Of a stretch of DNA of 64,000 nt, positions 271 to 20,973 are shown one piece after another. The translations under genes and the position numbers were made by a program. Under the pieces are notes generated by a model. The model did not search any database. It was not told the DNA's origin and was given only the letters and a program-made list of their open reading frames with translations. Source of the stretch: a virus. The stretch spans positions 32,001 through 96,000 of IMG/VR virus record IMGVR_UViG_3300025237_000002; one strand, given 5' to 3'. Numbering within the stretch: the first letter of the stretch is position 1; every line of letters starts with the position of its first letter.

Positions 271-1074
271 ATGATAAAGCAATTCAGAGACGAATACGCT
301 TGGTTAAGTAATATGACCCCTTGTATAATGACATACAAGGGTATTGAATATGCTACAAGTGAACATGCATACATGTCGGCAAAGTCTGATGATATGGAAT
401 GGAAATCAAGATGTGCTGACAAACAAGTACCAGCAAAGGTAATAAAACGAGAAAGTAAAGATATCATTCTAATAGATAATTGGGAACTCTTTAAGTTCTT
501 CGTAATGAGTGAGGTGATAGATATTAAATTTTCACTAGAACCCTTTAGAAGTCAATTGTTAGCTACTGGCGATGTTGGTATTGAAGAAGGTAATACCTGG
601 AATGATTTATTCTGGGGTGTTGACAATTACACTCGTAAAGGTCATAACCATTTAGGGAATATTCTAATGGAGAAAAGAGACCTATTAAACTGTGAAGAAT
701 CAAATAAAAAAACAAATATGGATATTAAAGATAAAATAGATTTTACAAAATATATGGAGTTGTCAAAACAACTAGATATTAGAGTTGGTATCATAAATGA
801 TGCTGAAAAAATACCTAAGAGTTTCGGACTTAAATTAACGGTTCAATTCGCATGTGGTGATGATAATCATGTTACCAAGACAGCGTTCACTAACTTAGGT
901 AAGACACACGAACCTGAAGACCTAATTGGTCTTCAATGTCCATTCATTGTTAACCTTGAACCAAGTGTTATCAAGGGTGTTACCAGTGAGGTAATGATTA
1001 TGGTTGGTGAAGAAATTGGTGGTGGGTTACAAGTTAATCCAAGTAATTATGTATCTGGAGCAAAATTAATGTAA
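271..1074 (+). CDS. NADAR (YbiA-like) domain fused to CsaA/Trbp111-like tRNA-binding OB domain
   Basis: N-half SEHAYMSAK, KF..LLATGD..IEEGNTWNDLFWG, G.NHLGNILM (NADAR); C-half LDIRVG.I..AEKIP..LKLTV, VNLEP..IKGVTSEVMI (tRNA_bind); possible internal ATG at 718. Confidence 0.85.
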   Translation: MIKQFRDEYAWLSNMTPCIMTYKGIEYATSEHAYMSAKSDDMEWKSRCADKQVPAKVIKRESKDIILIDNWELFKFFVMSEVIDIKFSLEPFRSQLLATGDVGIEEGNTWNDLFWGVDNYTRKGHNHLGNILMEKRDLLNCEESNKKTNMDIKDKIDFTKYMELSKQLDIRVGIINDAEKIPKSFGLKLTVQFACGDDNHVTKTAFTNLGKTHEPEDLIGLQCPFIVNLEPSVIKGVTSEVMIMVGEEIGGGLQVNPSNYVSGAKLM

Positions 1075-1322: not shown

Positions 1323-1333
1323 AATAAAGTAAT

Positions 1334-1732: not shown

Positions 1733-1788
1733 ACCTTGTTTTTATCAATTATTATGTGTATATTTGTAGTATCTTAAAAAAGAATATT

Positions 1789-2400
1789 ATGATAATACAA
1801 TTAGTAGATAGAAATGAAGGTATGGTTGATGCTTGGACAAGTGAATTTTTTGATTGTAAAGATGTTATCATCTATCACGATGATTTCTTCGCTCCACAAA
1901 CAGACTGCATCGTATCACCAGCAAATTCATTCGGATTTATGGATGGTGGTTTAGATGGTGTAATTACCAAACACTTAGGACCTAACATTCAATTTAATGT
2001 TCAATCTAGAATTGCGAAAACAACAATGAAAGAATTGTTGGTCGGTGAAGCGATGTTAGTTGAAACTGGGAATGATGAGATTCCATGGTGCATTTCAGCA
2101 CCAACAATGAGACTACCAGCAACGAAACTAACGAATACACCAAATGTTTATTTAGCCGCTAAAGCAATTTTTGGTGTATTAAAAAATCTAGAAAATACGT
2201 TTCAAACCATGATTAAAACTGTTACAATTAGTGGATTAGGTACGGGAGTTGGACAAGTACCTTTTGAAATTTGTGCTCAACAAATGAAGTTGGCATATGA
2301 TGAAGTATGGTTAGGTAAAGGTACGTCACCAAAAACTTGGTATGAAGCGTTTGATACACAACAATTACTATACAGTGATATAAATAAAGCAAGAAAATAA
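1789..2400 (+). CDS. macrodomain protein (ADP-ribose / Appr-1-p processing)
   Basis: IVSPANSFGFMDGGLD, ISAPTM, GLGTGVG; start moved to ATG 1789 downstream of promoter at 1759. Confidence 0.9.
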   Translation: MIIQLVDRNEGMVDAWTSEFFDCKDVIIYHDDFFAPQTDCIVSPANSFGFMDGGLDGVITKHLGPNIQFNVQSRIAKTTMKELLVGEAMLVETGNDEIPWCISAPTMRLPATKLTNTPNVYLAAKAIFGVLKNLENTFQTMIKTVTISGLGTGVGQVPFEICAQQMKLAYDEVWLGKGTSPKTWYEAFDTQQLLYSDINKARK

Positions 2401-2402
2401 TA

Positions 2403-2684
2403 ATGAACCCACAAGAAATTATAGAAAACGATAGAATGTTAAGTGCCATATTAAAAGGTTTAACCGATATGTGGCATTTCCAAGAAGAATTCCTAGCTCT
2501 GATAGTGTTTATCACTAGAGACTTTGATATAGCAAATAATACTGTTGAATACTTTGCTGATGAAGATATAGGTTTAGAAGAAGCATTGTTCCAATCAATG
2601 GATTTAGATGATTTTAAATCTATTTGTTTAAACAGTGAATACTTAGATAACGACAAATGTAAAGAATTAGTAGATGAGTGTTAA
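2403..2684 (+). CDS. hypothetical protein
   Basis: 93 aa acidic ORF, tightly packed. Confidence 0.65.
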   Translation: MNPQEIIENDRMLSAILKGLTDMWHFQEEFLALIVFITRDFDIANNTVEYFADEDIGLEEALFQSMDLDDFKSICLNSEYLDNDKCKELVDEC

Positions 2685-3213
2685 GAATAACAGTAGATTT
2701 TTGAGTTTGGTTTTGAGACATAAACCTGAAACCATCGGTCTTAAATTAGATAAGAACGGTTGGGTTGATGTTGATGTGTTGTTAACTCAATTAAAAGAAC
2801 ATGACCGTGAAATGACGATGTTAGAATTAACTGAGGTTGTCACCACCAATGATAAGAAGCGTTTCGAGTTTAACGATGAAATGACCATGATTAGAGCGGC
2901 ACAAGGACATAGCGTGAAGGTTGATTTACAACTGAAAACAAAACGTCCACCAATGGAGTTATTTCATGGTACAGTGCCTAGATTCCTACCTGACATTAGG
3001 AAAGGTGGTCTAAAGAAAATGAAACGTCATGCGGTACATCTAAGTGACGATATCAAGACTGCTGAAAAAGTTGGCTCACGTAGAGGTAAAGAAATTATAT
3101 TAACTATTGAAACAGGTGCTATGTATGCGGATGGATTTAAATTCACCCAATCAAAGAACGGTGTTTGGTTAGTAGACAATGTACCAAGTAAGTACATCAA
3201 AATCAAAGAGTAA
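2674..3213 (+). CDS. kptA: RNA 2'-phosphotransferase (Tpt1/KptA)
   Basis: LSLVLRHKPE, NDKKRF, IRAAQGHS, HGT, RHAVHLS, NGVWL. Confidence 0.95.
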   Translation: MSVKNNSRFLSLVLRHKPETIGLKLDKNGWVDVDVLLTQLKEHDREMTMLELTEVVTTNDKKRFEFNDEMTMIRAAQGHSVKVDLQLKTKRPPMELFHGTVPRFLPDIRKGGLKKMKRHAVHLSDDIKTAEKVGSRRGKEIILTIETGAMYADGFKFTQSKNGVWLVDNVPSKYIKIKE

Positions 3214-3372
3214 TGAGTTTTAAACAACAACTCATAAACTTAGAAAAAGAATACCCTATTAAAAATAGGGAATATTGGGTTAAATATGGTAAATTGCAAG
3301 AAGAATTAACAACAAGGCTTAAGGAAATTGACCCAACAATATTCCCAGACAAATTATTTTAAATTAAATAGA

Positions 3373-3663
3373 ATGAAAAATAATAAATTAGATTTTGTTA
3401 ACGCACAAGAAATGATGGAACAAAATCCAAATACTTTTGAGGCACCAACATTAGATGAATTAAATAATATTCAACTTAATGATTTTGTAAAAGTGAGTAT
3501 TGGTGGTGAAAGATTTTGGGTATGTGTTGGAAAACTTATAACAGATGAAATAATTGAAGGAGTTGTTAATAATGATTTACTTTGTACAGATGTTCATGGG
3601 ATTGAATGTGATGACAAAATCATATTCAATAAGTCCAACATTTTTTCAATTTATGAAGAATAA
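3373..3663 (+). CDS. hypothetical protein, DUF2314-like
   Basis: VKV..GERFWV.V.....GVVNND pattern. Confidence 0.55.
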   Translation: MKNNKLDFVNAQEMMEQNPNTFEAPTLDELNNIQLNDFVKVSIGGERFWVCVGKLITDEIIEGVVNNDLLCTDVHGIECDDKIIFNKSNIFSIYEE

Positions 3664-3678
3664 CAAACAGATAAATAA

Positions 3679-4461
3679 ATGAAAAAAGATGATTTAGGGG
3701 ATAGAATGAAAGGTTATGAAGCCGTTACTAAGTACAAGTTGCTTAGAAGAGGTTATACTATGATTAGAATTGATGGTAAGGCTTTTCACACCTATACAAA
3801 AGGTCTTATACGTCCATTTGATATGGGGTTGGTTGAAGATATGGATGCTACTGCTAAGTATCTTTGTAAAGAGATTCAAGGTGCTGTATGTGCATTCGTT
3901 CAATCTGATGAGATTAGTATTTTGTTATGTGATTTTGAAAATAGAAATACAAGCGCATGGTATGATAATTCATTACAAAAAATGTGTAGTGTTTCAGCAT
4001 CATTGGCAACAGCTAAATTTAATCAATTAAGAACTTCAAGAGTTATAAGTGCTGGAAAAATACTAACTGAATTTGATAATATTGTATTAGCTATATTTGA
4101 TTCAAGAGTTTACCAATTACCAGCAAAGTATGAGGTTGAAAACTATATGATTTGGAGGCAACAAGATACTGTTAAGAATAGTATTTCTAGTGTTGCACAA
4201 TCAATGTTTTCACACAAAGAATTGAATGGTAAGAATGGAAACCAGAAGCAAGAAATGATGTTTCAAAAAGATGGTACGAATTGGGATGGTTTTGACCCTA
4301 AGTTAAAGAGGGGTAGAATGATTACAAAAGAGATATATGAGAAGGAACCTGACGTTATTAGAACTAGGTATGTGAGTAACGCACCACCAACATTTACACA
4401 AGATAAGGATTATTTAAATGAATTAATCCCAGATAGAGAAATTAGTAGATTATTAGTATGA
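3679..4461 (+). CDS. tRNA(His) guanylyltransferase Thg1-like (3'-5' polymerase)
   Basis: RIDGKAFHTYT, QSDEISI, FDSR, WRQQD..KNSI. Confidence 0.93.
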   Translation: MKKDDLGDRMKGYEAVTKYKLLRRGYTMIRIDGKAFHTYTKGLIRPFDMGLVEDMDATAKYLCKEIQGAVCAFVQSDEISILLCDFENRNTSAWYDNSLQKMCSVSASLATAKFNQLRTSRVISAGKILTEFDNIVLAIFDSRVYQLPAKYEVENYMIWRQQDTVKNSISSVAQSMFSHKELNGKNGNQKQEMMFQKDGTNWDGFDPKLKRGRMITKEIYEKEPDVIRTRYVSNAPPTFTQDKDYLNELIPDREISRLLV

Positions 4462-5243
4462 GAACATTAGTTATAGGTGATATTCATGGAGCTGGCTTAG
4501 CACTTAAACAAGTGTTAGAGCGTTGCGAATTCGACTATGAAAAGGATTTATTGATAACCATTGGTGATATTGTTGATGGTTGGGAAGATTCATTTATGTG
4601 CGTTGAAGAATTACTTAAGATACCAAATAGAATTGATATTATAGGTAATCACGATAATTGGTTTAGGTCATTTATTGACTCAGGAGTTCACGATACGAAT
4701 TGGGGTAACGGTGGTTTATCTACCGCAAAGTCTTACGCAAAGGCTGCTGGTATTGAGTTGTTAGTTCAAAAGCAAACAAATGAATACTTTGAACCAAGTG
4801 ATAAGTTTACTTTGAATTTGAATTCTGGTGATATTCCTGATTCTCATAAGAGTTTCTTTAGAGGTCAACACAAGTACTATAAGGATAATGATAACAATCT
4901 ATTCATCCATGGTGGTTTTGCTCGTAGTTACCCATTAAGAGAGCAAATGGATTATACTTTTATGTGGGATAGACATTTAATCACTCAAGCAATGTCAGCT
5001 AAATCAACTGGTACAAAATTAACATTTGTTGAAGAGTTCAATCAAATATATTTAGGTCATACCGCAACATTAAATTGGAAGACCGATAAACCAATTTATG
5101 CTGATAAGATTTGGAATGTAGATACTGGTGCTGGTGGTGGTGGTAAATTGACGATAATGGATATTGATACCAATAAATATTGGCAATCAGATAACGTACC
5201 TAGTCTGTATCCAGACGATGAACATAATTTAAGAAATAAATAA
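4458..5243 (+). CDS. calcineurin-like metallophosphoesterase (Ser/Thr phosphatase family)
   Basis: GDIHG, GDIVD, GNHD, HGG, GHT, DTGAG. Confidence 0.9.
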   Translation: MRTLVIGDIHGAGLALKQVLERCEFDYEKDLLITIGDIVDGWEDSFMCVEELLKIPNRIDIIGNHDNWFRSFIDSGVHDTNWGNGGLSTAKSYAKAAGIELLVQKQTNEYFEPSDKFTLNLNSGDIPDSHKSFFRGQHKYYKDNDNNLFIHGGFARSYPLREQMDYTFMWDRHLITQAMSAKSTGTKLTFVEEFNQIYLGHTATLNWKTDKPIYADKIWNVDTGAGGGGKLTIMDIDTNKYWQSDNVPSLYPDDEHNLRNK

Positions 5244-5251
5244 AAAACAAT

Positions 5252-6343
5252 ATGAGTAAAGAAAAAGAATTCCTTAAGGATTATATTAAAACCCCATCAC
5301 CGAGTGGGTATGAAATGCAATTAGGTGGACAAAAGGTGTGGATTGATTATGTATCACAATATGCTAATAGGGTCGAGGTTGATAACTATGGAAATGCTTA
5401 TGCTTATTACGGAAGTAGAATTGTTGAAGATGGTGTTGTTACTAAAAAAAGAAAACCCCACACCGTATTGCTAGACGCACATGCTGACGAAATTGGATTT
5501 TTTGTATTTGATATTACGTCTAAAGGGTTCCTTAAAATCGGTTGTCTAGGTGGAAGTGATATTACAATAGCACCATCATCTAGAGTGAATATATGGACTA
5601 AAAACGGTCCAGTTAAAGGTGTTTTTGGACACCCAGCTATTCATGTACATGGACGTAAATTTGAGGCTAAAAAAGAAGATATGTTTGTTGATATCGGAGT
5701 GTCATCTAAGAAAAAAGTGAGTAAATTAGGTATTGTAGTTGGTGACCCAATCACAATGGTTGACGGTTATATGGAATTAGGTGATTATCACTGTGGTAGA
5801 GCGTTAGATGACAAAATAGGTGGTTATATAACTTCTCAAGTATTACGAAGTTTAAGTGAGAATGAGATAGAATTGTCTTTTGAATTGGTTATCGTTAATG
5901 CAGTTCAAGAAGAAGTTGGATTATATGGTGCTAAAATGGCAGCGCAAAGGGTTAAACCTGACGTTGCAATCGCAATTGATGTTACGCATGACACAACAAG
6001 TCCATGTTATAACCCAAATAAACAAGGTTCTTTAACTGCTGGTAATGGTATTGTTATAATGACAGCACCATCATTACATAAAAAAGTTGTGGAATTATTG
6101 GTTGATACAGCGATTGAGAATAAAATTAAGTATCAAAGAATCGCAAGTGGTGGTTCATCAGGTACAAATGCAGACGCTTATGCATATCCACATGGAATCC
6201 CAACAGCGTTGCTTAAAATGGCAATGAGATATATGCATACAACTGTAGAGACAGTTCATAAAAAAGATGTTAAATCTGCTATTGAATTGCTATATAAGGT
6301 GTTACAAACACCAGAAATAACTGAATCATTTAAGTATGATTAG
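5252..6343 (+). CDS. M42 family aminopeptidase
   Basis: PSPSGYE, DAHADEIG, LDDKIG, QEEVGL, DVTH, RYMHT. Confidence 0.92.
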   Translation: MSKEKEFLKDYIKTPSPSGYEMQLGGQKVWIDYVSQYANRVEVDNYGNAYAYYGSRIVEDGVVTKKRKPHTVLLDAHADEIGFFVFDITSKGFLKIGCLGGSDITIAPSSRVNIWTKNGPVKGVFGHPAIHVHGRKFEAKKEDMFVDIGVSSKKKVSKLGIVVGDPITMVDGYMELGDYHCGRALDDKIGGYITSQVLRSLSENEIELSFELVIVNAVQEEVGLYGAKMAAQRVKPDVAIAIDVTHDTTSPCYNPNKQGSLTAGNGIVIMTAPSLHKKVVELLVDTAIENKIKYQRIASGGSSGTNADAYAYPHGIPTALLKMAMRYMHTTVETVHKKDVKSAIELLYKVLQTPEITESFKYD

Positions 6344-6390
6344 TTAAATTACCGTCTGTAAGTGGGACCTTAGACACCCACAAAATTATT

Positions 6391-6972
6391 ATGAATAACA
6401 AAGAAATAATTAAAGAAGAATTAAGAAAAAAATTATTATTAGAGAAAAAAGGAGATTCACATAGCTACGGGTGTGTGATGTTATTTTTTGATATTGGAAA
6501 AGGTAACTGGAAAAAGATTCAATCATTGATTGATGATGATGACATTTACACTGAGGAAGGTGACCAAAGTTATGGGAGAGAGAATGAACCTCACGTAACC
6601 ATTTTATATGGTTTACATGATGATATTGAAGACTCTACAATTGAAGCTTTGATTGATGAAATTAAACCGACTAAATTGACGCTTAAGAAAATCTCATTAT
6701 TTGAGAACGATAAGTTTGATGTGGTTAAATTTGATGTAATTGGAGTGAGTGAAGGTAGATTAGGTAAAATGAATGCTAAGTTCGCTGAATTACCTCATAC
6801 AACTGACTTCCCAGACTATCACCCACATGCAACTATTGCATATGTTAAAGCTGGAACAGGTAAGAAATACATTCAAACCCTATCAAGCGAAGACGCAATT
6901 ACTGTTGAATGTAATGACGTGGTATATAGCAAAGCTGATGATACTAAAAACAAATATAAATTGAAGAAATGA
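6391..6972 (+). CDS. 2H phosphoesterase, Acb1/T4 gp57B-like
   Basis: YGCVML, EPHVTILYG and YHPHATIAY (two HxT motifs). Confidence 0.85.
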   Translation: MNNKEIIKEELRKKLLLEKKGDSHSYGCVMLFFDIGKGNWKKIQSLIDDDDIYTEEGDQSYGRENEPHVTILYGLHDDIEDSTIEALIDEIKPTKLTLKKISLFENDKFDVVKFDVIGVSEGRLGKMNAKFAELPHTTDFPDYHPHATIAYVKAGTGKKYIQTLSSEDAITVECNDVVYSKADDTKNKYKLKK

Positions 6973-7151
6973 GAGGAAACAAGAGAGTAAGCTATGGTTC
7001 AAATAGGGATGAATATGTGATAATTGAATCATTATCAGATGAAATAAGATTTGCGCAATGTATGAAATTATACAAATCGTTTGGTACCATTGACAAGTTG
7101 GAGGACTCATTAAAGAAAAAGACGTTAAATAAGATAAAACAAACTTTCTAA
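6969..7151 (+). CDS. hypothetical protein
   Basis: ATGA overlap with upstream gene. Confidence 0.55.
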   Translation: MRGNKRVSYGSNRDEYVIIESLSDEIRFAQCMKLYKSFGTIDKLEDSLKKKTLNKIKQTF

Positions 7152-7504
7152 TGAGACTAGACTATAAGAAGTTAAATAAAGAATTCCCTAAAGCAACTAT
7201 TTTGTTAGGGGCTTTGATTAATACACCAAATAAGTTAATAAAATTCTTTGACTCAAATGGTGTTAGGGTTTATTTAGGTTACGGAGCCAGTGGTGGAACT
7301 AGTGTTGAAGTTTATCGTAAGAGAACTTCTAAGGAGTTTAAAAAACTAAATCCAAATTCTAACTTAGACGTGAACTGGCAAATGACCAGAGTTGGAATCA
7401 TTAATAGCTTTAGAACTAGAGATGAAGCCTATAAAGTTGGGTTTGAGGAAGCATTCAAACAATTAGAATATTTAATAAATAATAAAGATGAAAACACAAA
7501 TTAA
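7151..7504 (+). CDS. hypothetical protein
   Basis: 117 aa, translationally coupled. Confidence 0.65.
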   Translation: MRLDYKKLNKEFPKATILLGALINTPNKLIKFFDSNGVRVYLGYGASGGTSVEVYRKRTSKEFKKLNPNSNLDVNWQMTRVGIINSFRTRDEAYKVGFEEAFKQLEYLINNKDENTN

Positions 7505-7892
7505 AAACGACATGGTACAAGCCATGAAAGATAAGAATGTTGTCGCTAGAGACATTCTTAGAGTGCTTATGGGTGAAATCCAAAGGGACGAAAATACCAT
7601 TAAAGGTGGTAAAGTTGAAGTAACTGATGAAGCCATTCAAAAGATGGTTAAGAAGTTAATTGAAAGTGTTAAAGAATCTGGTGATAATGGTGAAATTGAA
7701 TTGTTAGAAGGGTATTTACCTCAACAATTAACAAACGATGAGATGATAGGTCACGCTAGAGTGTTCATCGAATCAAATAATCTTAGCTCTCCAAAAGAAA
7801 TGGGACGAGTTATGGGCTACTTTAGTCAAGCATTTGCGGGAACGTATGATGGTAAGGCTTTAAGTGGTATTGTTAAAAATTTATTGACATGA
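7488..7892 (+). CDS. GatB/YqeY domain protein
   Basis: IKNDMVQAMKDK, E...LEGYLPQQL, KEMGRVMG, DGKALS..VK. Confidence 0.9.
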   Translation: MKTQIKNDMVQAMKDKNVVARDILRVLMGEIQRDENTIKGGKVEVTDEAIQKMVKKLIESVKESGDNGEIELLEGYLPQQLTNDEMIGHARVFIESNNLSSPKEMGRVMGYFSQAFAGTYDGKALSGIVKNLLT

Positions 7893-8302
7893 TAGAACTA
7901 TTAATAGTAATGTACATTATATTTGGTCATTTTATTGCTGATTTTGTTATGCAATCTCGTGAAATGGCTGTCAATAAAAGCTCTAGCACCTATTGGTTGA
8001 CTAGACATATCTTAGCATACGGTAAAACGATGCTCTTTATTGGTTTTATCTTTGTGTTAGTTATGTTCATATTTGGCACAAATTTATTTCATTTAATACC
8101 ATTGATAATAGGATATGTTTTATTGAATATGGGGTTACATTGGGTGACTGATTATTTTACTAGTAAAGAAACTACTAGATTATACTTAAAAGAAAGTAAA
8201 AAAATAGAACCTAATTATCATAATTTTTTTGTTATGATAGGGTTTGACCAATTAATTCATCTGCTCTGTTTAATAGGGACATACGGGTTATTTTATATAT
8301 AA
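7889..8302 (+). CDS. DUF3307-like membrane protein
   Basis: HFIADFVMQ, HWVTD, GFDQLIH; hydrophobic. Confidence 0.8.
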   Translation: MIELLIVMYIIFGHFIADFVMQSREMAVNKSSSTYWLTRHILAYGKTMLFIGFIFVLVMFIFGTNLFHLIPLIIGYVLLNMGLHWVTDYFTSKETTRLYLKESKKIEPNYHNFFVMIGFDQLIHLLCLIGTYGLFYI

Positions 8303-8449
8303 ATATGCAAGTCGTAAACTGAAAAAGGGTTAACAGTAGGTCTTGATACAACCCAGTAACCTTGCGGGGCACATATCCCCAATACACCAAGCCTTTAATA
8401 TGTGTGGTAGGTGAGAAAGCTGTTAGGTATCAGGCTTGTATATTTTTTT
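8303..8449 (+). ncRNA. candidate structured RNA (multibranch, kissing loop/pseudoknot)
   Basis: 8303-8313 pairs with 8433-8443; 8331-8337 with 8419-8425; loop CACATAT complementary to ATATGTG; followed by T-run. Confidence 0.5.
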
Positions 8450-8458
8450 ATAAAAATA

Positions 8459-8490
8459 TTAGGTTATATCAATTATATTAAGTATCTTTG
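8459..8490 (+). promoter_or_regulatory. Bacteroidetes-type sigma70 promoter
   Basis: TTAG-N20-TATCTTTG upstream of the operon containing NadM-Nudix. Confidence 0.75.
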
Positions 8491-8518
8491 CATAGTAATA
8501 ATCAAAAAATAGAAAATT

Positions 8519-8881
8519 ATGTTTTTAGAAATCACTTTTATAATATTCCTTATTATCGGCATCTTTTTAATTGCTACATCTGATTATGAATCACTTGGTG
8601 GATGGGTTTTAATAAGTATTTCGGTATTTGTCGTATTTTTTAATACGATTGAACTTTCAACATCTGAGTATGATTATGAAGTTTTAGTTGCAGAACGAGA
8701 TTCTTATCAATTATCACTAGATGGATTGAGGGCAATAGGTCAAGATTTTGAGACCTTAGCTATAGGTCAGGACATCGTTGATTTTAATAAACTTATCGCA
8801 GTTGAGAAGGTTCAAAATAAATCATGGTTTTATGATATATATATTGACGATAGAATTGACTCTTTACAACCTATAAAATAA
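8519..8881 (+). CDS. membrane protein
   Basis: two N-terminal hydrophobic segments. Confidence 0.7.
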   Translation: MFLEITFIIFLIIGIFLIATSDYESLGGWVLISISVFVVFFNTIELSTSEYDYEVLVAERDSYQLSLDGLRAIGQDFETLAIGQDIVDFNKLIAVEKVQNKSWFYDIYIDDRIDSLQPIK

Positions 8882-8999
8882 TGGGAAAAGAAGCCAACAA
8901 CTCAGAGTGCTATTATGCAAAACATCTAAAGAGAATTATATCTGTTATTGAAAACAAAGATTTATTCAAAAATATTAATCAATTTAATCACGAGTAATT

Positions 9000-10034
9000 A
9001 TGGTGGAAATACAAAAAATGATTGACCCAAAAGATTATGAAATCGGAGTTGCAGTAGCTAGATTTCAAGGGAAGAGATTACACGAAGGACATAAACAAAT
9101 GCTTGACCTTATAACTAGTAATCATAATAAAGTGATTATCTTCTTAGGGGTACCTAAAATTAGTAATACGAGAAGAAATCCATTGGACTTTGCAACTCGT
9201 AGGTTAATGATTCAAAAATTATACCCTAATGTGGTAATCCTACCACAACATGACCAACGTTCTGATGAAGTTTGGTCAAGAGCATTAGACGCTCAAATAT
9301 CAACGCCATTCGGAGATGGAAAAGCTTTACTATACGGTAGTAGAGATTCATTCATACCACATTACGAAGGTAAACATACCACAACAATATTAACTGATAT
9401 TCCAAACGTAAGTGGAACTGAACTAAGAGATAAGGTAGCAAGTGAAATTCTTCCTAACTCTAGTTTTAGAGCGGGTGTTATATATGCAAATTATGCACGT
9501 AGACCAGTCACTTATTCAACCGTTGACGTAGCAATACATAACGACAAGGGTCAATTCTTATTGGCTAAAAAACCACACGAGAAGCATTGGCGATTCGTTG
9601 GTGGGTTTGTAGATAGAGAAGATGAGAGTGATGAACAAGCCGTTATTAGAGAGGCTTCGGAAGAAACCAATGGTTGTCACATAGGTAATATAAGATACAT
9701 ATTATCACAAAAAGTTGATGATTGGAGATATCGAAGAGAAGCAGATGGTATTATGACACGTTTATTCCTTACATCATATGTTTTTGGTAATCCTAAAGCA
9801 ACTGATGACCTTGCAAATGGTGGTGATTTGCAATGGCACGATATATCTTACTTCACAGAAGCTAGACGTATTGAAAATGAAATTATGCCTGAACACCAAA
9901 GTTTGATGACTCAATTAATTGAGAAAATCTATACTGATAAAATGGTTCCTAACTTGGGTAGATTCCACGTACCATTTATAGAGGAACGTGACCCTGATGC
10001 TGTAGTAGAAAACACCGAATTTATACCTAAATAA
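9000..10034 (+). CDS. nadM: bifunctional NMN adenylyltransferase / ADP-ribose pyrophosphatase (NadM-Nudix)
   Basis: ARFQ..LHEGH, RNPL, SGTELR; Nudix box GGFVD..DESDEQAVIREASEET. Confidence 0.92.
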   Translation: MVEIQKMIDPKDYEIGVAVARFQGKRLHEGHKQMLDLITSNHNKVIIFLGVPKISNTRRNPLDFATRRLMIQKLYPNVVILPQHDQRSDEVWSRALDAQISTPFGDGKALLYGSRDSFIPHYEGKHTTTILTDIPNVSGTELRDKVASEILPNSSFRAGVIYANYARRPVTYSTVDVAIHNDKGQFLLAKKPHEKHWRFVGGFVDREDESDEQAVIREASEETNGCHIGNIRYILSQKVDDWRYRREADGIMTRLFLTSYVFGNPKATDDLANGGDLQWHDISYFTEARRIENEIMPEHQSLMTQLIEKIYTDKMVPNLGRFHVPFIEERDPDAVVENTEFIPK

Positions 10035-10035
10035 T

Positions 10036-10887: not shown

Positions 10888-10888
10888 T

Positions 10889-11095: not shown

Positions 11096-11098
11096 ACA

Positions 11099-11464: not shown

Positions 11465-11506
11465 TTAAAATAAAAAGTTGTATCTTTGCATTAACAAACA
11501 AATACT

Positions 11507-11807: not shown

Positions 11808-13475
11808 ATGGAGAAAGAAAGAGGAATCACAATTAGTTCTGTAAATGAAGTGGTATTACCACAAAGAAAAGTCTTTGACACACCAAGACTATTACAAGCT
11901 GATGCTTACACTGTAGGTTCAGATGGTTTTCAATCTGTGAAAGCTAAAGAGAAATCAACTTATTATATTGTCTTCCGTAGACAACTATCAACAGTAAACC
12001 CAACCTTATATAATAAGGGTGACGATAGAATGATATTTGAAGGTCTAGGAACTTATTTAGAAAAATTATTCTACAAACCAGTTACTCACGAAGAAATTGA
12101 TACCGCTAAAGAATTCTTGAAAACGTTCAAAGCGACTTCATTAGGATTAGCTGAGTATGCTTTTCCTGAAGCTATGTGGCGTAGAGTAGTAGACGAATTC
12201 AATGGTAGACCACCAATCAAAATTAAGGCAATGCCTAACGGTTCTGTGGTTTATCCTAACGAACCAATCATACAAATAGAATCAATGGTTAACGGTATGG
12301 GTGAACTAGCCGCTTGGTTTGAGTCAACACTTCTTAAAGTGTGGGCACCTTCTGAACGTGTTACCCAAAACGAACATTGGTTATCTAAGTTGAAAAATAT
12401 GCTTAGAAAGGTTTATGGTACTACCATGAGCGAAGAAGATATTCACTTCAAAGCATCTCTTATGCTAACAGATTTCGGTGATAGAGCTGGAATGACAAAC
12501 GAAGAAAGTGAAGTATTAGGTATGGCTCACTTGTATACATTTCCAGGAACTGATAACTGCCAAGGAGCATATCAAGCATGGGAAAATGCGGGAAGAGTTC
12601 CAATCGGAAGTTCAGTTAATGCACTAGCACATAGAAATATACAAGCGTATGACGTAGAGAATGACTGTTATGAAGCGATTTATGATTTCTGTCAAAACGG
12701 AGAATTCATTTCAATGGTTTCTGACTGTTACGATTTCTACACTGCGAATGAAAAATACATACTACCTCTTGCTAAAAGAAGTATTGCGGAAGGTAACAAT
12801 AAGGTAGTTGTTTCAAGACCTGATTCAGGTAATGCGAAAGAACAAGTACTTTGGTTATGTAGATTAGCTGTAAGAAATGGTTTATACACAACTCAAGTTA
12901 TCGATGGTGTTGAATGGAAATTCGCCACATCACTTAGATTTATTGAAGGTGATGGAATGACGTGGGCTGATATGTGGGAAATCATTGAAGCTTTATTAGA
13001 AGCTGGATTTGCACCTGACGCTTGGGGATTATTCGGAGTAGGTGGTGGATTAAGAAACCCACTTAAACGTGATAACACTTCAGCAAAATATGCTTTATGT
13101 GCAAAAGGAGATGACAACGAAGGAGTTGTTAAATTCTCAGATACCCTAGGAAAGACAACACTTCCAGGACCTTTTAAAATCCTAAGAACACCTTGGGCTT
13201 TAGAAAATAAGGAAACAATCGTATTTGAACATGAAGATGGTGACGATGCAATGGTGGTTTACTTCGATGGTAGTAACATTTGGAAACCATTTGGAGTAGG
13301 ACAAGATGATAACTTCTTGGTCACTAGAGACAGAATAAGAACACAATGGGATTCAATGCCATTGAACCTTACAACTGCTACAAATCATAATTATCCAGCT
13401 TCAGAGGCTATTCTAAATGAGCGTAGAAGATTACTTAAAATTCATGCTCCTAAGAAACAAGCTAAAAACTATTAA
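11808..13475 (+). CDS. nadV: nicotinamide phosphoribosyltransferase (NAMPT/NadV family)
   Basis: ADAY, FESTLL, DFGDR, VSDCYD, RPDSG, IEGDG, FGVGGGL, RDN..AKY. Confidence 0.88.
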   Translation: MEKERGITISSVNEVVLPQRKVFDTPRLLQADAYTVGSDGFQSVKAKEKSTYYIVFRRQLSTVNPTLYNKGDDRMIFEGLGTYLEKLFYKPVTHEEIDTAKEFLKTFKATSLGLAEYAFPEAMWRRVVDEFNGRPPIKIKAMPNGSVVYPNEPIIQIESMVNGMGELAAWFESTLLKVWAPSERVTQNEHWLSKLKNMLRKVYGTTMSEEDIHFKASLMLTDFGDRAGMTNEESEVLGMAHLYTFPGTDNCQGAYQAWENAGRVPIGSSVNALAHRNIQAYDVENDCYEAIYDFCQNGEFISMVSDCYDFYTANEKYILPLAKRSIAEGNNKVVVSRPDSGNAKEQVLWLCRLAVRNGLYTTQVIDGVEWKFATSLRFIEGDGMTWADMWEIIEALLEAGFAPDAWGLFGVGGGLRNPLKRDNTSAKYALCAKGDDNEGVVKFSDTLGKTTLPGPFKILRTPWALENKETIVFEHEDGDDAMVVYFDGSNIWKPFGVGQDDNFLVTRDRIRTQWDSMPLNLTTATNHNYPASEAILNERRRLLKIHAPKKQAKNY

Positions 13476-17843: not shown

Positions 17844-18533
17844 ATGAAAATAGCCGTATTTACTGGAGCTGGAATCAGCCAAGAAAGTGGGATAGCCACT
17901 TATAGAGACCATGAAGATGGTATGTGGTATGAGTATCATACTGAGGAAGTTGCAAGCGCAGAAGCTTGGAAGAATACACCTGAAAAGGTATTAGAATTTC
18001 ATAATGTTATGCGTGGAAAGTGTCGTAATGTAGAAGCTAATATAGCCCACGAAGCTCTAGCTAAACTTGAAGAGAAACACGAGGTTACGATTGTAACCCA
18101 AAACGTTGATGACTTACACGAGAAAGGTGGTTCAACCAACGTATTACATATTCATGGTGAGATAATGAAAGGTAGAGATAGCTTTGATAAAATATTAGAC
18201 CTTGAAGGTGATTTGAATATAGGTGACAAAGATGAATATGGTGAACAAATCCGACCACATACCGTTTTATTCGGTGAAGAACCATTTCATTGGTTTGAGG
18301 CTTTGAATGCAATCAACGATGCTGACGTATTTTTGATTATAGGAACATCATTCTCAATAGGTTACACAATGTTCATATTAGGTGCTTGTAAGTCTGATTG
18401 TAAAGTGATTTACATTGACCCTAAACCAGATTTAGGTATTCACCATGCTGGTAGTGATGATGTTGAGTTGATATATGCTAAGGCGACTAAAGGAGTGCCA
18501 GCAACAGTAGATAAATTAATGAAAAATACTTAA
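17844..18533 (+). CDS. cobB: Sir2/CobB-family NAD-dependent deacylase
   Basis: FTGAGISQESGIATYR, TQNVDDLHE, HIHG, RPH.VLFGE, IGTS. Confidence 0.92.
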   Translation: MKIAVFTGAGISQESGIATYRDHEDGMWYEYHTEEVASAEAWKNTPEKVLEFHNVMRGKCRNVEANIAHEALAKLEEKHEVTIVTQNVDDLHEKGGSTNVLHIHGEIMKGRDSFDKILDLEGDLNIGDKDEYGEQIRPHTVLFGEEPFHWFEALNAINDADVFLIIGTSFSIGYTMFILGACKSDCKVIYIDPKPDLGIHHAGSDDVELIYAKATKGVPATVDKLMKNT

Positions 18534-20010: not shown

Positions 20011-20973
20011 ATGAAAATAGATTCAGTAATTATTAATTTGAACCAAAGCGATAGTCTTATCAATAAAGTCTATGAACGATTAGCTGCAATGAGACATAAA
20101 GTACCAATGGGTAAAGCCAACATTCAGGTATTTTCTGATGGTGAAACTTGCGTTGATTTCTCAACACCAGTTCGTGGTAAAAGAGTTTTCTTAGTGACAT
20201 CACCTAATTCACCTTTAAAACGTGAACAATTGAATTTTGCAATTGATGCTGCTAGAAGAGCAAGTGCGGTTGAAATAATTCCTATCTTACCATATTTTCC
20301 ATATGCTAGACAAGATAAACGTGACCAACGTAGAGGACCAATAGGTGCTAGGGTTTACGCTGATTCATTACAAGATGTTGGCGCAACGTCAATCATCACA
20401 TTTGATTTACATTCAGACCAAATAGAAGGTTTCTTCAAAATACCTGTAATTCATTTAAGAGGTAAGTATTTGTTCTGTGAATTTATACACGAAATTAGCG
20501 ATGTTAACACCGTTTTATGTTCACCCGATGCTGGTGGGTTAAAACGTGTTAAAAAGATTAGAGACCGTATATATGAGAAGTATGATAACAAAATGTCATT
20601 CGTTTCAATAGACAAAACTAGAACACAAGCCAATAAGACTGATAGTGTTGAAATATTAGGTGAGGTTAAAGGTAAAAATGTTATCATGATTGATGATATG
20701 TGTGATACTGGTGGTACTTTGATTAAGGGTGCTGAGGCTTTGATAAACGCTGGGGCAACTTCAGTAAAAGTACTAGTAACTCACGCAATATTAAGTGGTG
20801 ACGCAAGTCTTAACTTGGGTGCATCAATAATAGAACAATTTATATGTTCAGATTCACTTACCCATAGGGGTGTAGGTTCTGATATGGACGGAAAAATGAA
20901 AGTAATATCAACTGCAACTGACTTAGCAAATGCTATTGTTAGTATCAATGTTGATGGAAGTATAAACCGATAA
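20011..20973 (+). CDS. prs: ribose-phosphate pyrophosphokinase (Prs family; could be ADPR-PP synthetase)
   Basis: FSDGE, PYFPYARQDKR, DLH, SPDAGG, DDMCDTGGT, TH. Confidence 0.92.
   Translation: MKIDSVIINLNQSDSLINKVYERLAAMRHKVPMGKANIQVFSDGETCVDFSTPVRGKRVFLVTSPNSPLKREQLNFAIDAARRASAVEIIPILPYFPYARQDKRDQRRGPIGARVYADSLQDVGATSIITFDLHSDQIEGFFKIPVIHLRGKYLFCEFIHEISDVNTVLCSPDAGGLKRVKKIRDRIYEKYDNKMSFVSIDKTRTQANKTDSVEILGEVKGKNVIMIDDMCDTGGTLIKGAEALINAGATSVKVLVTHAILSGDASLNLGASIIEQFICSDSLTHRGVGSDMDGKMKVISTATDLANAIVSINVDGSINR

What the first reader, a model, noticed from the sequence alone, without database searches (positions are those of the whole stretch)
1789..10034. Tpt1 - 2H phosphoesterase - macrodomain - Nudix: a eukaryote-like Appr>p disposal chain
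Seen: macrodomain (1789), Tpt1/KptA (2674), 2H phosphoesterase (6391) and Nudix (9000) within 8.3 kb. Established: in yeast tRNA splicing Tpt1 consumes NAD+ and releases ADP-ribose-1'',2''-cyclic phosphate, a 2H CPDase opens it, and a macrodomain dephosphorylates it to ADPR. Inference: the phage may couple RNA 2'-phosphate repair to by-product recycling and feed the ADPR into the adjacent NAD+ loop, giving an integrated RNA-repair/NAD-economy system. Alternatively Tpt1 ADP-ribosylates nucleic-acid ends while the macrodomain and NADAR erase such marks.
Basis: partly seen in the sequence, partly recalled or inferred. Interest (0 to 1): 0.7.

Follow-up and report, generated by a model that had tools for sequence, protein, structure and literature searches.

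The report
Phage NAD-linked RNA-repair gene island
A giant marine phage carries an enzyme that spends NAD+ to strip 2'-phosphates from RNA next to enzymes that could clear its by-product and rebuild NAD+; this idea is already published for giant phages, and only part of the proposed chain holds up here.

Summary
All four genes are real and intact. They are a Macro2-type macrodomain (1789-2400), Tpt1 (2674-3213), a 2H phosphoesterase (6391-6972) and an NMNAT-Nudix fusion (9000-10034). They lie in a co-directional island of about 22 kb that also holds ARH, NADAR-tRNA_bind, a Thg1-like enzyme, a lambda-phosphatase-like metallophosphoesterase (MPE), YqeY, NAMPT, SIR2 and Prs.

The "Tpt1, 2H, macro, Nudix" disposal chain is a published prediction for jumbo phages (Iyer et al. 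2021, 2022). This scan has also met Tpt1-plus-macro clusters in Klebsiella jumbo phages.

My tests support it only in part.
- **Tpt1-macro link holds.** The macro's closest solved relative is the yeast Appr-1''-phosphatase YMR087W. Macro-Tpt1 proximity recurs in this clade, in Klebsiella/Serratia jumbo phages and in Bacteroidota chromosomes.
- **2H link does not hold.** This 2H family travels with YqeY and the NAD-salvage genes. Tpt1 is in only 6 of 49 records that carry it. It was detected in 0 of 80 bacterial Tpt1 neighbourhoods. Its only solved relatives by sequence are Acb1.
- **MPE is the steady partner of Tpt1.**
- **The island is bacterial in style, not eukaryote-like.** It mirrors a Bacteroidota chromosomal Tpt1 neighbourhood (ARH, macro, NADAR, MPE, NAMPT, Prs, SIR2).

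Verdict: a new member of a known, predicted kind, with nothing shown biochemically.

The parts
271..1074 (+). NADAR domain fused to a Trbp111/MetRS-C-type tRNA-binding OB fold
   Evidence: Pfam NADAR 1.7e-14 and tRNA_bind 9.6e-8. The nearest solved chains are YbiA 2b3w for residues 6-143 and Trbp111, CsaA and MetRS C-terminal domains for residues 153-257. The fusion is found in only 3 of 115 homologue clusters.
1789..2400 (+). Macro2-type (YMR087W-like) macrodomain, candidate ADP-ribose-1''-phosphate phosphatase
   Evidence: Pfam Macro_2 scores 33.4 bits against a cut-off of 27. A family profile gives yeast 1njr as the best PDB match, E 8.5e-17 over nearly the whole length. N46 is invariant and G53, G54 and D56 are at least 90% conserved in 46 sequences.
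2403..2684 (+). Acidic 93-aa protein of unknown function between macro and Tpt1, overlapping Tpt1 by 11 bases
   Evidence: No Pfam or PHROG family and no usable Atlas hit. It is present in all 6 viral loci that hold both macro and Tpt1.
2674..3213 (+). Tpt1/KptA NAD+-dependent RNA 2'-phosphotransferase
   Evidence: Pfam 8.3e-51. NCBIfam equivalog score is over its cut-off. R15, H16, R63 and R118 are invariant in 32 sequences. They sit one position before the essential R16, H17, R64 and R119 of Runella Tpt1 (abstract seen).
3679..4461 (+). Thg1-like 3'-5' nucleotidyltransferase (tRNA 5'-end repair type)
   Evidence: Pfam Thg1 3.1e-27 and PHROG tRNA-His guanylyltransferase 9.3e-84.
4458..5243 (+). 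Lambda-phosphatase/ApaH-like metallophosphoesterase (MPE), the steadiest partner of Tpt1
   Evidence: Pfam Metallophos 1.2e-9 and PHROG NinI-like phosphatase 4.1e-40. The nearest solved chains are lambda phosphatase 1g5b and Ap4A hydrolases. It lies downstream of Tpt1 on the same strand in 31 of 80 bacterial loci.
5252..6343 (+). M42 aminopeptidase, interposed and given no role in the pathway
   Evidence: Pfam Peptidase_M42 2.6e-70. Among the Tpt1-centred viral loci it is shared only with L053.
6391..6972 (+). 2H phosphoesterase with two HxT motifs; substrate undecided between an RNA 2',3'-cyclic end, Appr>p and cyclic oligonucleotides
   Evidence: Pfam PF13563 is over its cut-off, while Acb1 (23.9 bits, cut-off 27) and LigT_PEase are below theirs. 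TIGR02258 scores 24.3 bits against 65.7. The family profile hits only Acb1 chains in the PDB, best E 1.6e-4.
7488..7892 (+). YqeY/GatB-tail-like protein, the commonest neighbour of this 2H family
   Evidence: Pfam YqeY 7.7e-22. It lies within 10 kb of the 2H in 37 of 80 loci, always on the same strand.
9000..10034 (+). NMN adenylyltransferase fused to a Nudix hydrolase (NadM-Nudix type)
   Evidence: Pfam NUDIX 6.2e-12 on residues 174-282. NCBIfam bifunctional NMNAT/Nudix models hit both halves, all below their cut-offs.
11808..13475 (+). Nicotinamide phosphoribosyltransferase (NAMPT/NadV)
   Evidence: Pfam NAPRTase 1.6e-13 and NAMPT_N 1.3e-6.
17844..18533 (+). SIR2-family NAD+-dependent deacylase
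   Evidence: Pfam SIR2 1.2e-35. NCBIfam deacylase models reach 2.9e-47 but stay below their cut-offs.
20011..20973 (+). Ribose-phosphate pyrophosphokinase (Prs), which would supply PRPP to NAMPT
   Evidence: Pfam Pribosyltran_N 1.7e-29, Pribosyltran 1.1e-14 and Pribosyl_synth 3.5e-14.

Best explanation
The four genes belong to a co-directional island of about 22 kb in a jumbo T4-type phage of marine Bacteroidota. The island joins RNA and tRNA end repair to NAD+ and ADP-ribose housekeeping.

Inferred mechanism:
1. Tpt1 uses NAD+ to remove 2'-phosphates from RNA. The most likely substrate is tRNA cut by host nucleases and healed through a 2',3'-cyclic phosphate.
2. [quoted passage not shown]
3. 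The cyclic phosphate is opened by the lambda-phosphatase-like MPE that travels with Tpt1, by the 2H enzyme, or by both.
4. The Macro2-type macrodomain takes off the 1''-phosphate to give ADP-ribose.
5. The Nudix half of NMNAT-Nudix splits ADP-ribose into AMP and ribose-5-phosphate.
6. Prs, NAMPT and the NMNAT half rebuild NAD+ from ribose-5-phosphate and nicotinamide.

The Thg1-like enzyme, YqeY and the tRNA-binding NADAR point to tRNA as the macromolecular client.

What is shown: the gene identities, the intact motifs and the neighbourhood statistics. What is inferred: every substrate and every step. The island is the viral counterpart of a chromosomal Tpt1 neighbourhood in Bacteroidota, not a copy of the yeast pathway. 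The 2H enzyme is the weakest link of the chain.
For: - Gene identities and motifs.
- The macro's closest solved relative is YMR087W (1njr, E 8.5e-17). The Macro-2 clade is described as Appr-1''-p phosphatases without de-MARylating activity (PMC6397177, Introduction passage).
- Macro lies near Tpt1 in three lineages. First, this phage clade: 6 of 63 Tpt1-centred loci. Second, Klebsiella/Serratia jumbo phages, about 2 kb apart in 5 records listed in both; the Macro_2 hit there is 23.1 bits, below the cut-off. Third, Bacteroidota chromosomes, where a macro cluster lies within 4 kb of Tpt1 in 29 of 80 loci.
- MPE lies downstream of Tpt1 on the same strand in 31 of 80 bacterial loci, with a gap of 300 bases or less in 10. 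In the 2H-centred viral loci, 6 of 7 Tpt1-positive loci hold MPE. The single MPE-positive locus without Tpt1 is a contig cut just upstream.
- Eight island components have counterparts around bacterial Tpt1. ARH is in 31 of 80 (cluster) and 11 of 80 by tblastn with the phage ARH. MPE is in 31, macro 29, NAMPT 28, Prs 27, NADAR 25 and SIR2 8.
- The complete relative G002 (360 kb) carries an Rnl1-family ligase, two PF09414 ligases and an HD-Pnk elsewhere in its genome.
- The same scheme is predicted for jumbo phages by Iyer et al. 2021 and 2022 (passages).
Against: - No enzyme activity is known for any of these proteins.
- No RNA ligase family (PF09511, PF09414, PF01139) was found in the window's own 110.5-kb contig, which is only 31% complete.
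- Most Tpt1-bearing viral records lack a Pfam Macro hit: 37 of 50 overall, and 11 of 17 among those at least 90% complete. Most also lack a PF13563 2H hit: 38 of 50, and 10 of 17. The complete clade member G001 has Tpt1, MPE and 2H but no Macro hit. In G002 the macro lies 24 kb from Tpt1.
- The Macro2 family has Tpt1 within 10 kb in only 6 of 72 viral loci.
- The 2H family is mostly Tpt1-free (6 of 49 records).
- Outside the clade, Tpt1 in cultured phages sits among hypothetical genes.
- All genes of the region are co-directional, and no promoters or terminators stand out above shuffled sequence. Operon limits are therefore unknown, and shared ancestry of a syntenic block explains part of the linkage.
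- The Tpt1 tree does not show a host origin for the phage gene.
Confidence: 0.45

Rival explanations
1. The island is a toolbox of separate counter-defence enzymes that share only NAD+ and ADP-ribose chemistry, not one pathway. The 2H enzyme would be an Acb1-like degrader of cyclic-oligonucleotide immune signals. The macro would be an Adpp-like ADPR-1''-phosphate phosphatase answering RES-type NAD+ phosphorolysis. NAMPT, NMNAT and Prs would be NARP2-type NAD+ resynthesis against NADase defences. ARH and NADAR would reverse ADP-ribosylation by host toxins. Tpt1 would act on RNA on its own.
For: - The 2H profile hits only Acb1 chains in the PDB (9q2g 1.6e-4, 9q2y 2.7e-3, 7t26 0.36).
- By my count of the listing, 94 of the 120 listed homologues carry a precomputed Acb1 Pfam hit.
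- The 2H family occurs in 123 GenBank phage records, 107 of them Microbacterium phages of about 41 kb. The organism tallies of that set and of the 98 Tpt1-bearing records share only 'uncultured'; three names were not shown.
- A phage macro, Adpp, has been shown to dephosphorylate ADPR-1P made by aRES (preprint 10.64898/2026.01.28.702374, sections 7 and 9 read).
- NARP2 is an established counter to NAD+ depletion (abstract starts).
- The Macro2 family's only recurrent neighbour outside the clade is NADAR, in 13 of 72 loci, 7 of them outside the clade.
Against: - Acb1 membership fails the Pfam cut-off (23.9 against 27). The LigT model scores the same (24.3 bits), so sequence does not decide the 2H's substrate.
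- Adpp is reported as Poa1p-like, whereas this macro is YMR087W-like.
- A mere toolbox does not explain why macro, MPE, NADAR, ARH, NAMPT and Prs surround Tpt1 on the same strand in Bacteroidota chromosomes.
- It also does not explain why MPE is gained and lost together with Tpt1 in phages.
Confidence: 0.27
2. Tpt1 acts as a writer and the macro as an eraser. The adjacent macro, and perhaps ARH, would remove the cap. The acidic 93-aa protein between them would regulate the pair.
For: - Macro, the 93-aa ORF and Tpt1 are packed tightly and are conserved together in 6 of 6 loci that hold both enzymes.
- Tpt1-family enzymes ADP-ribosylate 5'-phosphate ends, and several macrodomain and ARH hydrolases reverse this (Lu et al. 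2025, passages).
Against: - The Macro-2 clade is described as lacking de-MARylating activity.
- NADARs did not remove phosphate-linked ADP-ribose.
- This model gives no role to MPE, the steadiest partner of Tpt1.
- It does not explain the linkage to NAMPT and Prs.
Confidence: 0.08
3. The linkage carries no functional meaning. The genes are neighbours only because they lie in one inherited accessory block of a phage lineage in which all genes run the same way.
For: - The order 2H, YqeY, DUF3307, NMNAT-Nudix, NAMPT is a syntenic backbone in roughly 30 of 80 2H-centred loci. Tpt1, MPE, Thg1, macro and NADAR are added in only a narrow clade.
- Outside the clade, Tpt1 has no recurrent neighbour at BLAST level except YqeY and NADAR.
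- No transcription signals stand out above shuffled sequence.
Against: - The same partners recur around Tpt1 in a separate, well-supported Bacteroidota clade. MPE is 38-41% identical to the phage protein, NAMPT 25-28% and ARH 23-32%.
- Macro lies near Tpt1 in unrelated enterobacterial jumbo phages.
- Different macro types occupy the position next to Tpt1: MacroD-type in most bacterial loci and Macro2-type in the phages.
Confidence: 0.12

Closest known systems
KptA-based NAD+-dependent RNA repair predicted for jumbo phages (Iyer, Anantharaman, Krishnan, Burroughs, Aravind 2021, Viruses 13:63; Iyer et al. 2022, Viruses 14:1977)
   Same: KptA/Tpt1, 2H, Macro, NADAR and Nudix are proposed to clean RNA 2'-phosphates and then process ADPr>P and Appr1p, beside phage NAD+ salvage (passages seen).
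   Different: In this island the steady Tpt1 partner is a calcineurin-like MPE rather than the 2H. The NADAR is fused to a tRNA-binding domain, and a Thg1-like enzyme and YqeY are in the block. The host is a marine Bacteroidota. I saw no mention of Thg1, YqeY or a tRNA-binding fusion in the 2022 text. The supplements of both papers were not opened.
Yeast tRNA-splicing by-product route: Tpt1, Cpd1 (2H), Poa1 and YMR087W (macro)
   Same: There is a Tpt1 with its catalytic Arg-His-Arg-Arg set. The macro's closest solved relative is YMR087W.
   Different: No Trl1-type ligase is in the contig. The 2H is not Tpt1-linked across genomes. The neighbourhood is bacterial in origin and style. The role of Cpd1 is recalled from memory, not read here.
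NARP2 / KVP40-type phage NAD+ salvage (NAMPT plus NMNAT-Nudix)
   Same: NAMPT and an NMNAT-Nudix fusion are present, with a Prs nearby. NARP2 is described in the abstract starts seen.
   Different: Here the genes are embedded in a larger block with Tpt1, macro, NADAR, ARH and SIR2. The NCBIfam bifunctional models are matched only below their cut-offs.
NARP1-AP: the phage macro phosphatase Adpp that converts ADPR-1P from aRES into ADPR (Osterman et al. 2026 preprint)
   Same: A phage macrodomain acting as an ADPR-1''-phosphate phosphatase next to NAD+ reconstitution genes.
   Different: Adpp is Poa1p-like and sits in a NARP1 operon (Adps, Namat). This macro is YMR087W-like and sits beside Tpt1 and a NARP2-type set.
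Runella slithyformis Tpt1 repair cluster (Tpt1, HD-Pnk, ligase, MTase-HIT; Munir et al. 2018)
   Same: A Bacteroidota Tpt1 proven to be a 2'-phosphotransferase, with the same four essential residues. The relative G002 has an HD-Pnk and ligases.
   Different: In this phage the healing and sealing genes are not next to Tpt1. The Bacteroidota loci I sampled show an NAD/ADP-ribose neighbourhood instead.
Acb1 (anti-CBASS 2H phosphodiesterase of phages)
   Same: The same 2H fold family, and the only solved relatives found by sequence.
   Different: The match is below the Pfam Acb1 cut-off. This protein has about 60 extra N-terminal residues before the first HxT motif. Its gene neighbours are YqeY and NAD salvage genes.
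NrtR-prs-nadV clusters of Bacteroidota (Rodionov et al. 2008)
   Same: NrtR, Prs and NadV are clustered, for example in Cytophaga hutchinsonii (table seen). NrtR-type Nudix regulators, Prs-like genes and NAMPT lie in the Tpt1 neighbourhoods I found.
   Different: That paper's main text does not contain the word 'phosphotransferase' (0 occurrences). The Tpt1, MPE, ARH, macro, NADAR and DUF4291 extension comes from my loci. It may be described in de Souza & Aravind 2012, which I could not read.

Membership tests
Tpt1/KptA RNA 2'-phosphotransferase | Family model matched above its curated cut-off | tested here: met
   Pfam PF01885 scores 173 bits against a cut-off of 26. NCBIfam NF002014 scores 245.4 against 239.
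Tpt1/KptA RNA 2'-phosphotransferase | Essential Arg-His-Arg-Arg set | tested here: met
   R15, H16, R63 and R118 are invariant in 32 sequences. They are matched by position to Runella R16, H17, R64 and R119 (abstract). The mapping rests on position and motif, not on a direct alignment with the Runella protein.
Tpt1/KptA RNA 2'-phosphotransferase | NAD+-dependent removal of an RNA 2'-phosphate | not testable with these tools
   Needs an enzyme assay.
Macro2-type macrodomain (YMR087W, Pfam Macro_2) | Macro_2 model above its cut-off, and YMR087W as the closest solved relative | tested here: met
   Macro_2 scores 33.4 bits against 27. Profile A3 matches 1njr at E 8.5e-17 over profile positions 1-182; the next hit is TTHA0132 at 6.5e-13.
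Macro2-type macrodomain (YMR087W, Pfam Macro_2) | ADP-ribose-1''-phosphate phosphatase activity | not testable with these tools
   Only the family assignment is available.
2H phosphoesterase superfamily | Two His-x-Thr/Ser motifs and a family model above its cut-off | tested here: met
   The motifs are at residues 68-70 and 146-148 and are conserved in alignment A2. PF13563 scores 37.7 bits against 27.
Acb1 (anti-CBASS 2H) | Pfam PF23474 above its gathering score | tested here: not met
   It scores 23.9 bits against a cut-off of 27. The family profile does hit Acb1 chains, and only those, at 1.6e-4.
LigT/ThpR RNA 2',3'-cyclic phosphodiesterase | TIGR02258 or PF02834 above its cut-off | tested here: not met
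   TIGR02258 scores 24.3 against 65.7. PF02834 scores 20.2 against 23.3. No LigT chain was matched at E up to 1.
Yeast-type Appr>p disposal chain (Tpt1, 2H, macro) | The 2H enzyme is functionally tied to Tpt1, tested as co-occurrence across genomes | tested here: not met
   Tpt1 is in 6 of 49 records carrying this 2H family, and in 2 of 9 complete ones. My 2H model hit 0 of 80 bacterial Tpt1 neighbourhoods. Other 2H families were not searched there.
Yeast-type Appr>p disposal chain (Tpt1, 2H, macro) | A ligase that leaves a 2'-phosphate junction (Trl1-type) in the same genome | tested here: inconclusive
   No ligase family was found in the 31%-complete contig. The complete relative G002 has an Rnl1-family ligase. 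Whether that ligase needs or leaves a 2'-phosphate is unknown.
Jumbo-phage KptA RNA-repair / ADP-ribose module (Iyer et al.) | KptA together with 2H, Macro and/or NADAR, and Nudix, in a large phage genome | tested here: met
   The contig is 110.5 kb at 31% estimated completeness. Complete relatives are 340-360 kb.
NARP2-type NAD+ salvage | NAMPT plus NMN adenylyltransferase | tested here: met
   NAPRTase and NAMPT_N domains. NMNAT models hit residues 11-108 of the Nudix fusion, below their cut-offs. No activity was tested.

The most novel reading that the evidence does not exclude
Tpt1 and the lambda-phosphatase-like MPE form the real core pair of an uncharacterised NAD+-consuming RNA 2'-phosphate system shared by Bacteroidota and their giant phages. 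[quoted passage not shown] The macro finishes the job and NAMPT with Prs repays the NAD+. The phage has retargeted the set to tRNA: NADAR is fused to a tRNA-binding domain, and Thg1, YqeY and 2H lie beside a phage tRNA array and a phage RNase P RNA. That would let the phage both mend cut tRNAs and strip ADP-ribose from them. If true, it would give bacterial Tpt1 a physiological setting, which it has lacked since its discovery.
Probability: 0.2. Interest if true: 0.7.

Novelty: new member of a known kind. Interest (0 to 1): 0.4.

Why it matters
What bacterial and phage Tpt1 enzymes do has long been unclear, because their hosts have no known RNAs with internal 2'-phosphates (stated in Munir et al. 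2018).

This island and the matching Bacteroidota neighbourhood place Tpt1 among enzymes that remove ADP-ribose derivatives and rebuild NAD+. They also name a specific, untested partner, the lambda-phosphatase-like MPE.

That makes a clean reconstitution experiment possible. It would also help to separate three uses of phage macro and 2H enzymes that are now confused: clearing the RNA-repair by-product, countering NAD+ phosphorolysis, and destroying immune signals.

As a concept it is not new. Its value lies in a well-defined, testable gene set and in showing which link of the textbook chain does not hold.

Tried and rejected
- **Nucleotide search against GenBank phages.** Megablast of window 1-12000 found nothing, so relatives had to be found through proteins.
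- **tRNA genes.** None in the window.
- **First locus scan.** The single Tpt1 protein gave only 2 loci, neither sharing other genes. I replaced it with an alignment-based scan.
- **Promoter and terminator scan of 1-14600.** It found 70 promoter-like sites against 78 in shuffles and 4 terminator-like sites against 4.6, so it could not define operons.
- **Split-fusion check.** I asked whether the ORF next to NADAR in relatives is a split-off tRNA-binding domain. It is not: BLASTP E = 13.
- **MPE comparison.** I asked whether the MPE fused to tRNA_bind in P0463 is the same MPE as here. Only a weak motif-level match was found (E 0.024).
- **Unknown ORFs.** ORFs 1074-1322, 1334-1732, 2403-2684, 3328-3663, 6969-7151, 7151-7504, 8519-8881 and 10036-10887 gave no informative family. 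The two Atlas look-ups were also uninformative.
- **Contexts of Tpt1 and 2H in cultured phages.** Tpt1 in Erwinia Y3 and C. difficile phiCD211, and the 2H in Maribacter phage Colly_1, lie mostly among hypothetical genes. Near the 2H in Colly_1 an RNA-repair-type HAD domain and a SLOG protein are annotated. No partner such as Tpt1, macro or MPE was named.
- **Host origin of the phage Tpt1.** I considered recent capture from a host and rejected it as unshown. The quick tree puts the window in a phage-only clade of 9 (SH-aLRT 97). The cluster-bearing Bacteroidota fall in another clade of 38 (97). The backbone is unresolved.
- **DUF4291 in the own contig.** No match, but the control rang nowhere, so the result says nothing.
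- **Earlier print of the bacterial Tpt1-MPE-NAMPT neighbourhood.** Searches found none, and Rodionov 2008 does not mention it. de Souza & Aravind 2012 is not held, and I asked for no supplementary files. I therefore make no claim that it is unpublished.

Full report
**What the window is.** The window is bases 32001-96000 of a single 110.5-kb IMG/VR virus contig. CheckV rates the contig 31% complete. GC content is about 33% and nearly every gene is on the + strand. Earlier notes of this scan describe the same contig as a marine T4-type giant phage of Bacteroidota. They place a tRNA array, a small RNase P RNA and a GOLLD RNA just upstream of my region. I did not re-test those notes.

- The macrodomain runs 1789-2400 within an ORF that opens at a GTG at 1756. 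Pfam Macro scores 1e-11 and Macro_2 scores 33.4 bits, over its cut-off of 27.
- Tpt1 runs 2674-3213. Pfam gives 8.3e-51, and it passes an NCBIfam equivalog cut-off.
- The 2H phosphoesterase runs 6391-6972. PF13563 is over its cut-off, and there are two HxT motifs.
- The Nudix gene runs 9000-10034. Its N-terminal half matches NMN adenylyltransferase models, so it is a NadM-Nudix-type fusion.

In Tpt1, R15, H16, R63 and R118 are invariant in 32 homologues. They sit one position before the four residues shown to be essential in Runella slithyformis Tpt1 (abstract).

The same co-directional block also holds:
- NADAR fused to a tRNA-binding OB fold (271-1074);
- a Thg1-like enzyme (3679-4461);
- a lambda-phosphatase/ApaH-like metallophosphoesterase, MPE (4458-5243);
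- an M42 peptidase, YqeY (7488-7892) and DUF3307;
- NAMPT (11808-13475), a radical-SAM protein, SIR2 (17844-18533), a truncated GluRS-like protein and Prs (20011-20973).

An ADP-ribosylglycohydrolase (ARH) lies at contig 30255-30911, about 1.1 kb before the window.

**The idea is already in print.** Iyer et al. [quoted passage not shown] Iyer et al. 2022 repeat this, add NADAR and Nudix, and note NADAR next to NadM and NadV in phages (passages). This scan has also followed up Tpt1-plus-macro clusters in Klebsiella jumbo phages. The concept is therefore not new. The question is how well this instance fits it.

**The macro step fits.** A profile of 46 family members has yeast YMR087W (1njr) as its best solved match, at E 8.5e-17 over almost the full length. 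This is ahead of the MacroD-type, PARP14 and DarG-type macros. A 2019 paper describes the Macro-2 clade as Appr-1''-p phosphatases without de-MARylating activity, with YMR087W as the only studied member (Introduction passage). Macro, a 93-aa acidic ORF and Tpt1 are packed with a 3-base gap and an 11-base overlap. This trio is kept in all 6 viral loci that hold both enzymes.

A Macro2-like gene also lies about 2 kb from Tpt1 in 5 Klebsiella/Serratia jumbo phage records that appear in both listings. I inspected one of them. There the Macro_2 hit is below the cut-off, and an HD-domain protein lies just upstream.

**The 2H step does not fit.**
- I scanned IMG/VR with an alignment of this 2H family and kept the best 80 of 387 loci. 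Within 10 kb of the 2H gene, my HMMs found YqeY in 37, NMNAT-Nudix in 21, DUF3307 in 19 and NAMPT in 16. Tpt1 was in only 7 and the macro in 5. The order 2H, YqeY, DUF3307, NMNAT-Nudix, NAMPT recurs on one strand.
- Searching whole records, Tpt1 was present in 6 of 49 that carry this 2H. Among records at least 90% complete it was 2 of 9.
- Conversely, PF13563 was found in 12 of 50 Tpt1-bearing viral records, and in 7 of 17 complete ones.
- In GenBank phages this 2H family is in 123 records, mostly 41-kb Microbacterium phages.
- By sequence the family sits between known groups. The Acb1 Pfam model scores 23.9 bits and the LigT TIGRFAM model 24.3 bits, both under their cut-offs. The family profile finds only Acb1 chains in the PDB, best E 1.6e-4.

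The 2H may still heal RNA cyclic ends or open Appr>p. It is not, however, a dedicated partner of Tpt1. The steady YqeY neighbour (a GatB-tail-like protein) hints at a tRNA client, but that is inference only.

**Macro is not obligatory for Tpt1 either.** A Pfam Macro hit was found in 13 of 50 Tpt1-bearing viral records, and in 6 of 17 complete ones. The complete clade member G001 has none. In G002 the macro lies 24 kb from Tpt1. Of 72 Macro2-centred viral loci, Tpt1 is within 10 kb in 6, all from this clade. The only other recurrent neighbour is NADAR, in 13 of 72, of which 7 are outside the clade.

**The closest parallel is bacterial.** I scanned one genome per prokaryote species with the Tpt1 alignment and kept the 80 best loci, mostly Bacteroidota. 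Within 10 kb of Tpt1, my phage-derived HMMs found:
- the MPE in 31 of 80;
- NAMPT in 28;
- NADAR in 25;
- a macro in 21;
- a Nudix in 18;
- no 2H, Thg1 or YqeY.

Clustering the ORFs within 4 kb, then scanning one representative of each cluster against Pfam, named further neighbours: an ARH (31 loci), a MacroD-type macro (29), DUF4291 (20), NrtR-type Nudix regulators (17) and a Prs-like protein (16). Four loci instead carry a Macro2-type macro that is 43-45% identical to the phage one. Prs was found by tblastn in 27 loci and SIR2 in 8. The phage ARH has homologues in 11.

The MPE is always downstream of Tpt1 on the same strand. The gap is 300 bases or less in 10 loci and 1000 or less in 22. At least three of MPE, macro, NADAR and NAMPT are present in 21 of 80 loci, and 39 of 80 have at least one of the five HMM families.

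Eight components of the phage island therefore have counterparts around chromosomal Tpt1.

In the phage data, MPE also tracks Tpt1. Of the 80 2H-centred loci, 7 have Tpt1 and 7 have MPE, with 6 in common. The odd MPE locus is a contig that ends just upstream.

**Limits of that parallel.**
- The 80 bacterial loci are the hits most similar to the phage family, not a random sample.
- In a quick tree, nearly all cluster-bearing loci fall in one Bacteroidota clade of 38 rows (SH-aLRT 97). They count as long conservation across several families, not as many independent events.
- The window's Tpt1 sits in a separate phage-only clade of 9 (97), and the backbone is unresolved. Neither capture from a host nor convergence is shown.
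- Identities between phage and bacterial partners are modest: Tpt1 59%, MPE 38-41%, NAMPT 25-28%, ARH 23-32%.
- I found no paper describing the Tpt1-MPE-NAMPT neighbourhood. Rodionov et al. 2008 list nrtR-prs-nadV in Cytophaga without Tpt1.
- The paper most likely to describe it, de Souza & Aravind 2012, is not held. From memory, its abstract links NADAR proteins to NAD-dependent RNA repair.

None of three RNA ligase families was found in the window's contig, but 69% of the genome is missing. The complete 360-kb relative G002 has a cluster about 50-60 kb from its Tpt1. That cluster holds an Rnl1-family ligase, two PF09414 ligases, an ATP-dependent DNA ligase, an HD-Pnk and another AAA_33 kinase. 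G001 has one PF09414 ligase. RtcB was found in none of 5 relatives. The clade can therefore seal RNA. Nothing shows that its ligases leave a 2'-phosphate.

**tRNA as the client.** The NADAR-tRNA_bind fusion occurs in 3 of 115 homologue clusters. A metagenomic protein, P0463, joins a 47%-identical tRNA_bind domain to a different metallophosphoesterase. This suggests that the OB fold is a movable tRNA-targeting module. Together with Thg1, YqeY and the upstream tRNA genes, it makes tRNA the likeliest macromolecular substrate. It is circumstantial evidence.

**Rival readings.** A 2026 preprint shows that a phage macro, Adpp, dephosphorylates ADPR-1''-phosphate made by RES-domain NAD+ phosphorolysis, next to NAD+ reconstitution genes. 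The macro here could serve that purpose instead of, or as well as, clearing the Tpt1 by-product. The 2H could be an Acb1-like signal degrader. Lu et al. 2025 report that macro and ARH hydrolases, but not NADARs, remove phosphate-linked ADP-ribose written by Tpt1-like enzymes. This keeps a writer-eraser reading alive for the macro only. None of these rivals explains the steady Tpt1-MPE-NAMPT linkage as well as a coupled NAD+-spending and NAD+-restoring pathway does.

**Verdict.** This is a new member of a predicted, untested kind of phage system. The useful corrections are that the MPE, not the 2H, is the conserved partner of Tpt1, and that the model to compare with is a Bacteroidota chromosomal neighbourhood rather than the yeast pathway.

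Noticed in passing
own contig 30255-30911 (about 1.1-1.7 kb before window position 1): An ADP-ribosylglycohydrolase gene (PF03747, 2.8e-22) lies just upstream of the NADAR gene. It extends the island beyond the window. It matches the ARH genes found next to Tpt1 in Bacteroidota chromosomes.
   Followed up: partly
L224-L303 (bacterial genome loci, Tpt1 at about 10001-10530 of each): Many Bacteroidota chromosomes keep Tpt1 in a same-strand neighbourhood with ARH, a MacroD-type macro, DUF4291, NADAR, a lambda-phosphatase-like MPE, NAMPT, Prs and an NrtR-type regulator. In several the genes Tpt1, MPE and NAMPT are nearly contiguous (for example L236, L244, L229, L300).
   Followed up: partly
window 6391-13475 and loci L143-L222: The order 2H, YqeY, DUF3307, NMNAT-Nudix, NAMPT is a recurring same-strand backbone in many uncultured phage contigs that lack Tpt1. 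The 2H-YqeY pairing (37 of 80 loci) has no explanation yet.
   Followed up: partly
protein P0463 (metagenomic, 388 aa) compared with window 271-1074: A tRNA-binding domain 47% identical to the one fused to NADAR here is fused in P0463 to a different metallophosphoesterase. The domain looks like a movable tRNA-targeting module.
   Followed up: partly
L068 (G002:C1:147000-165000): The complete 360-kb relative has a dense nucleic-acid repair cluster. It holds two PF09414 RNA ligases, an Rnl1-family ligase, an ATP-dependent DNA ligase, an HD-Pnk, a second AAA_33 kinase and two R2K ATP-grasp proteins.
   Followed up: partly
window 3214-3363: A 49-codon ORF starts at the ATG that overlaps the Tpt1 stop (TAATG). 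It contains a 7-bp perfect inverted repeat at 3254-3270. I did not check whether it is conserved in relatives.
   Followed up: no
window 10036-10887: This 283-aa ORF, right after NMNAT-Nudix, carries an HExxH motif (HEIGH) but matches no Pfam, PHROG or NCBIfam family. It had no homologue in any fetched locus.
   Followed up: partly
window 18577-19446: A 289-aa protein matches only the catalytic domain of class I Glu/Gln tRNA synthetases (5.9e-53). It has tblastn homologues in some relatives' loci around Tpt1 (7 of 63), the macro (6 of 72) and the 2H (5 of 80). It may be a GluQ-RS-like tRNA modifier.
   Followed up: no
L223 (Klebsiella phage LPKP23, PV112478.1 86687-105244): An unrelated enterobacterial jumbo phage has PnuC, an HD/PDE-like protein, Tpt1 and a Macro2-like gene on one strand within about 12 kb. 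No 2H was seen among the 10 ORFs scanned.
   Followed up: partly
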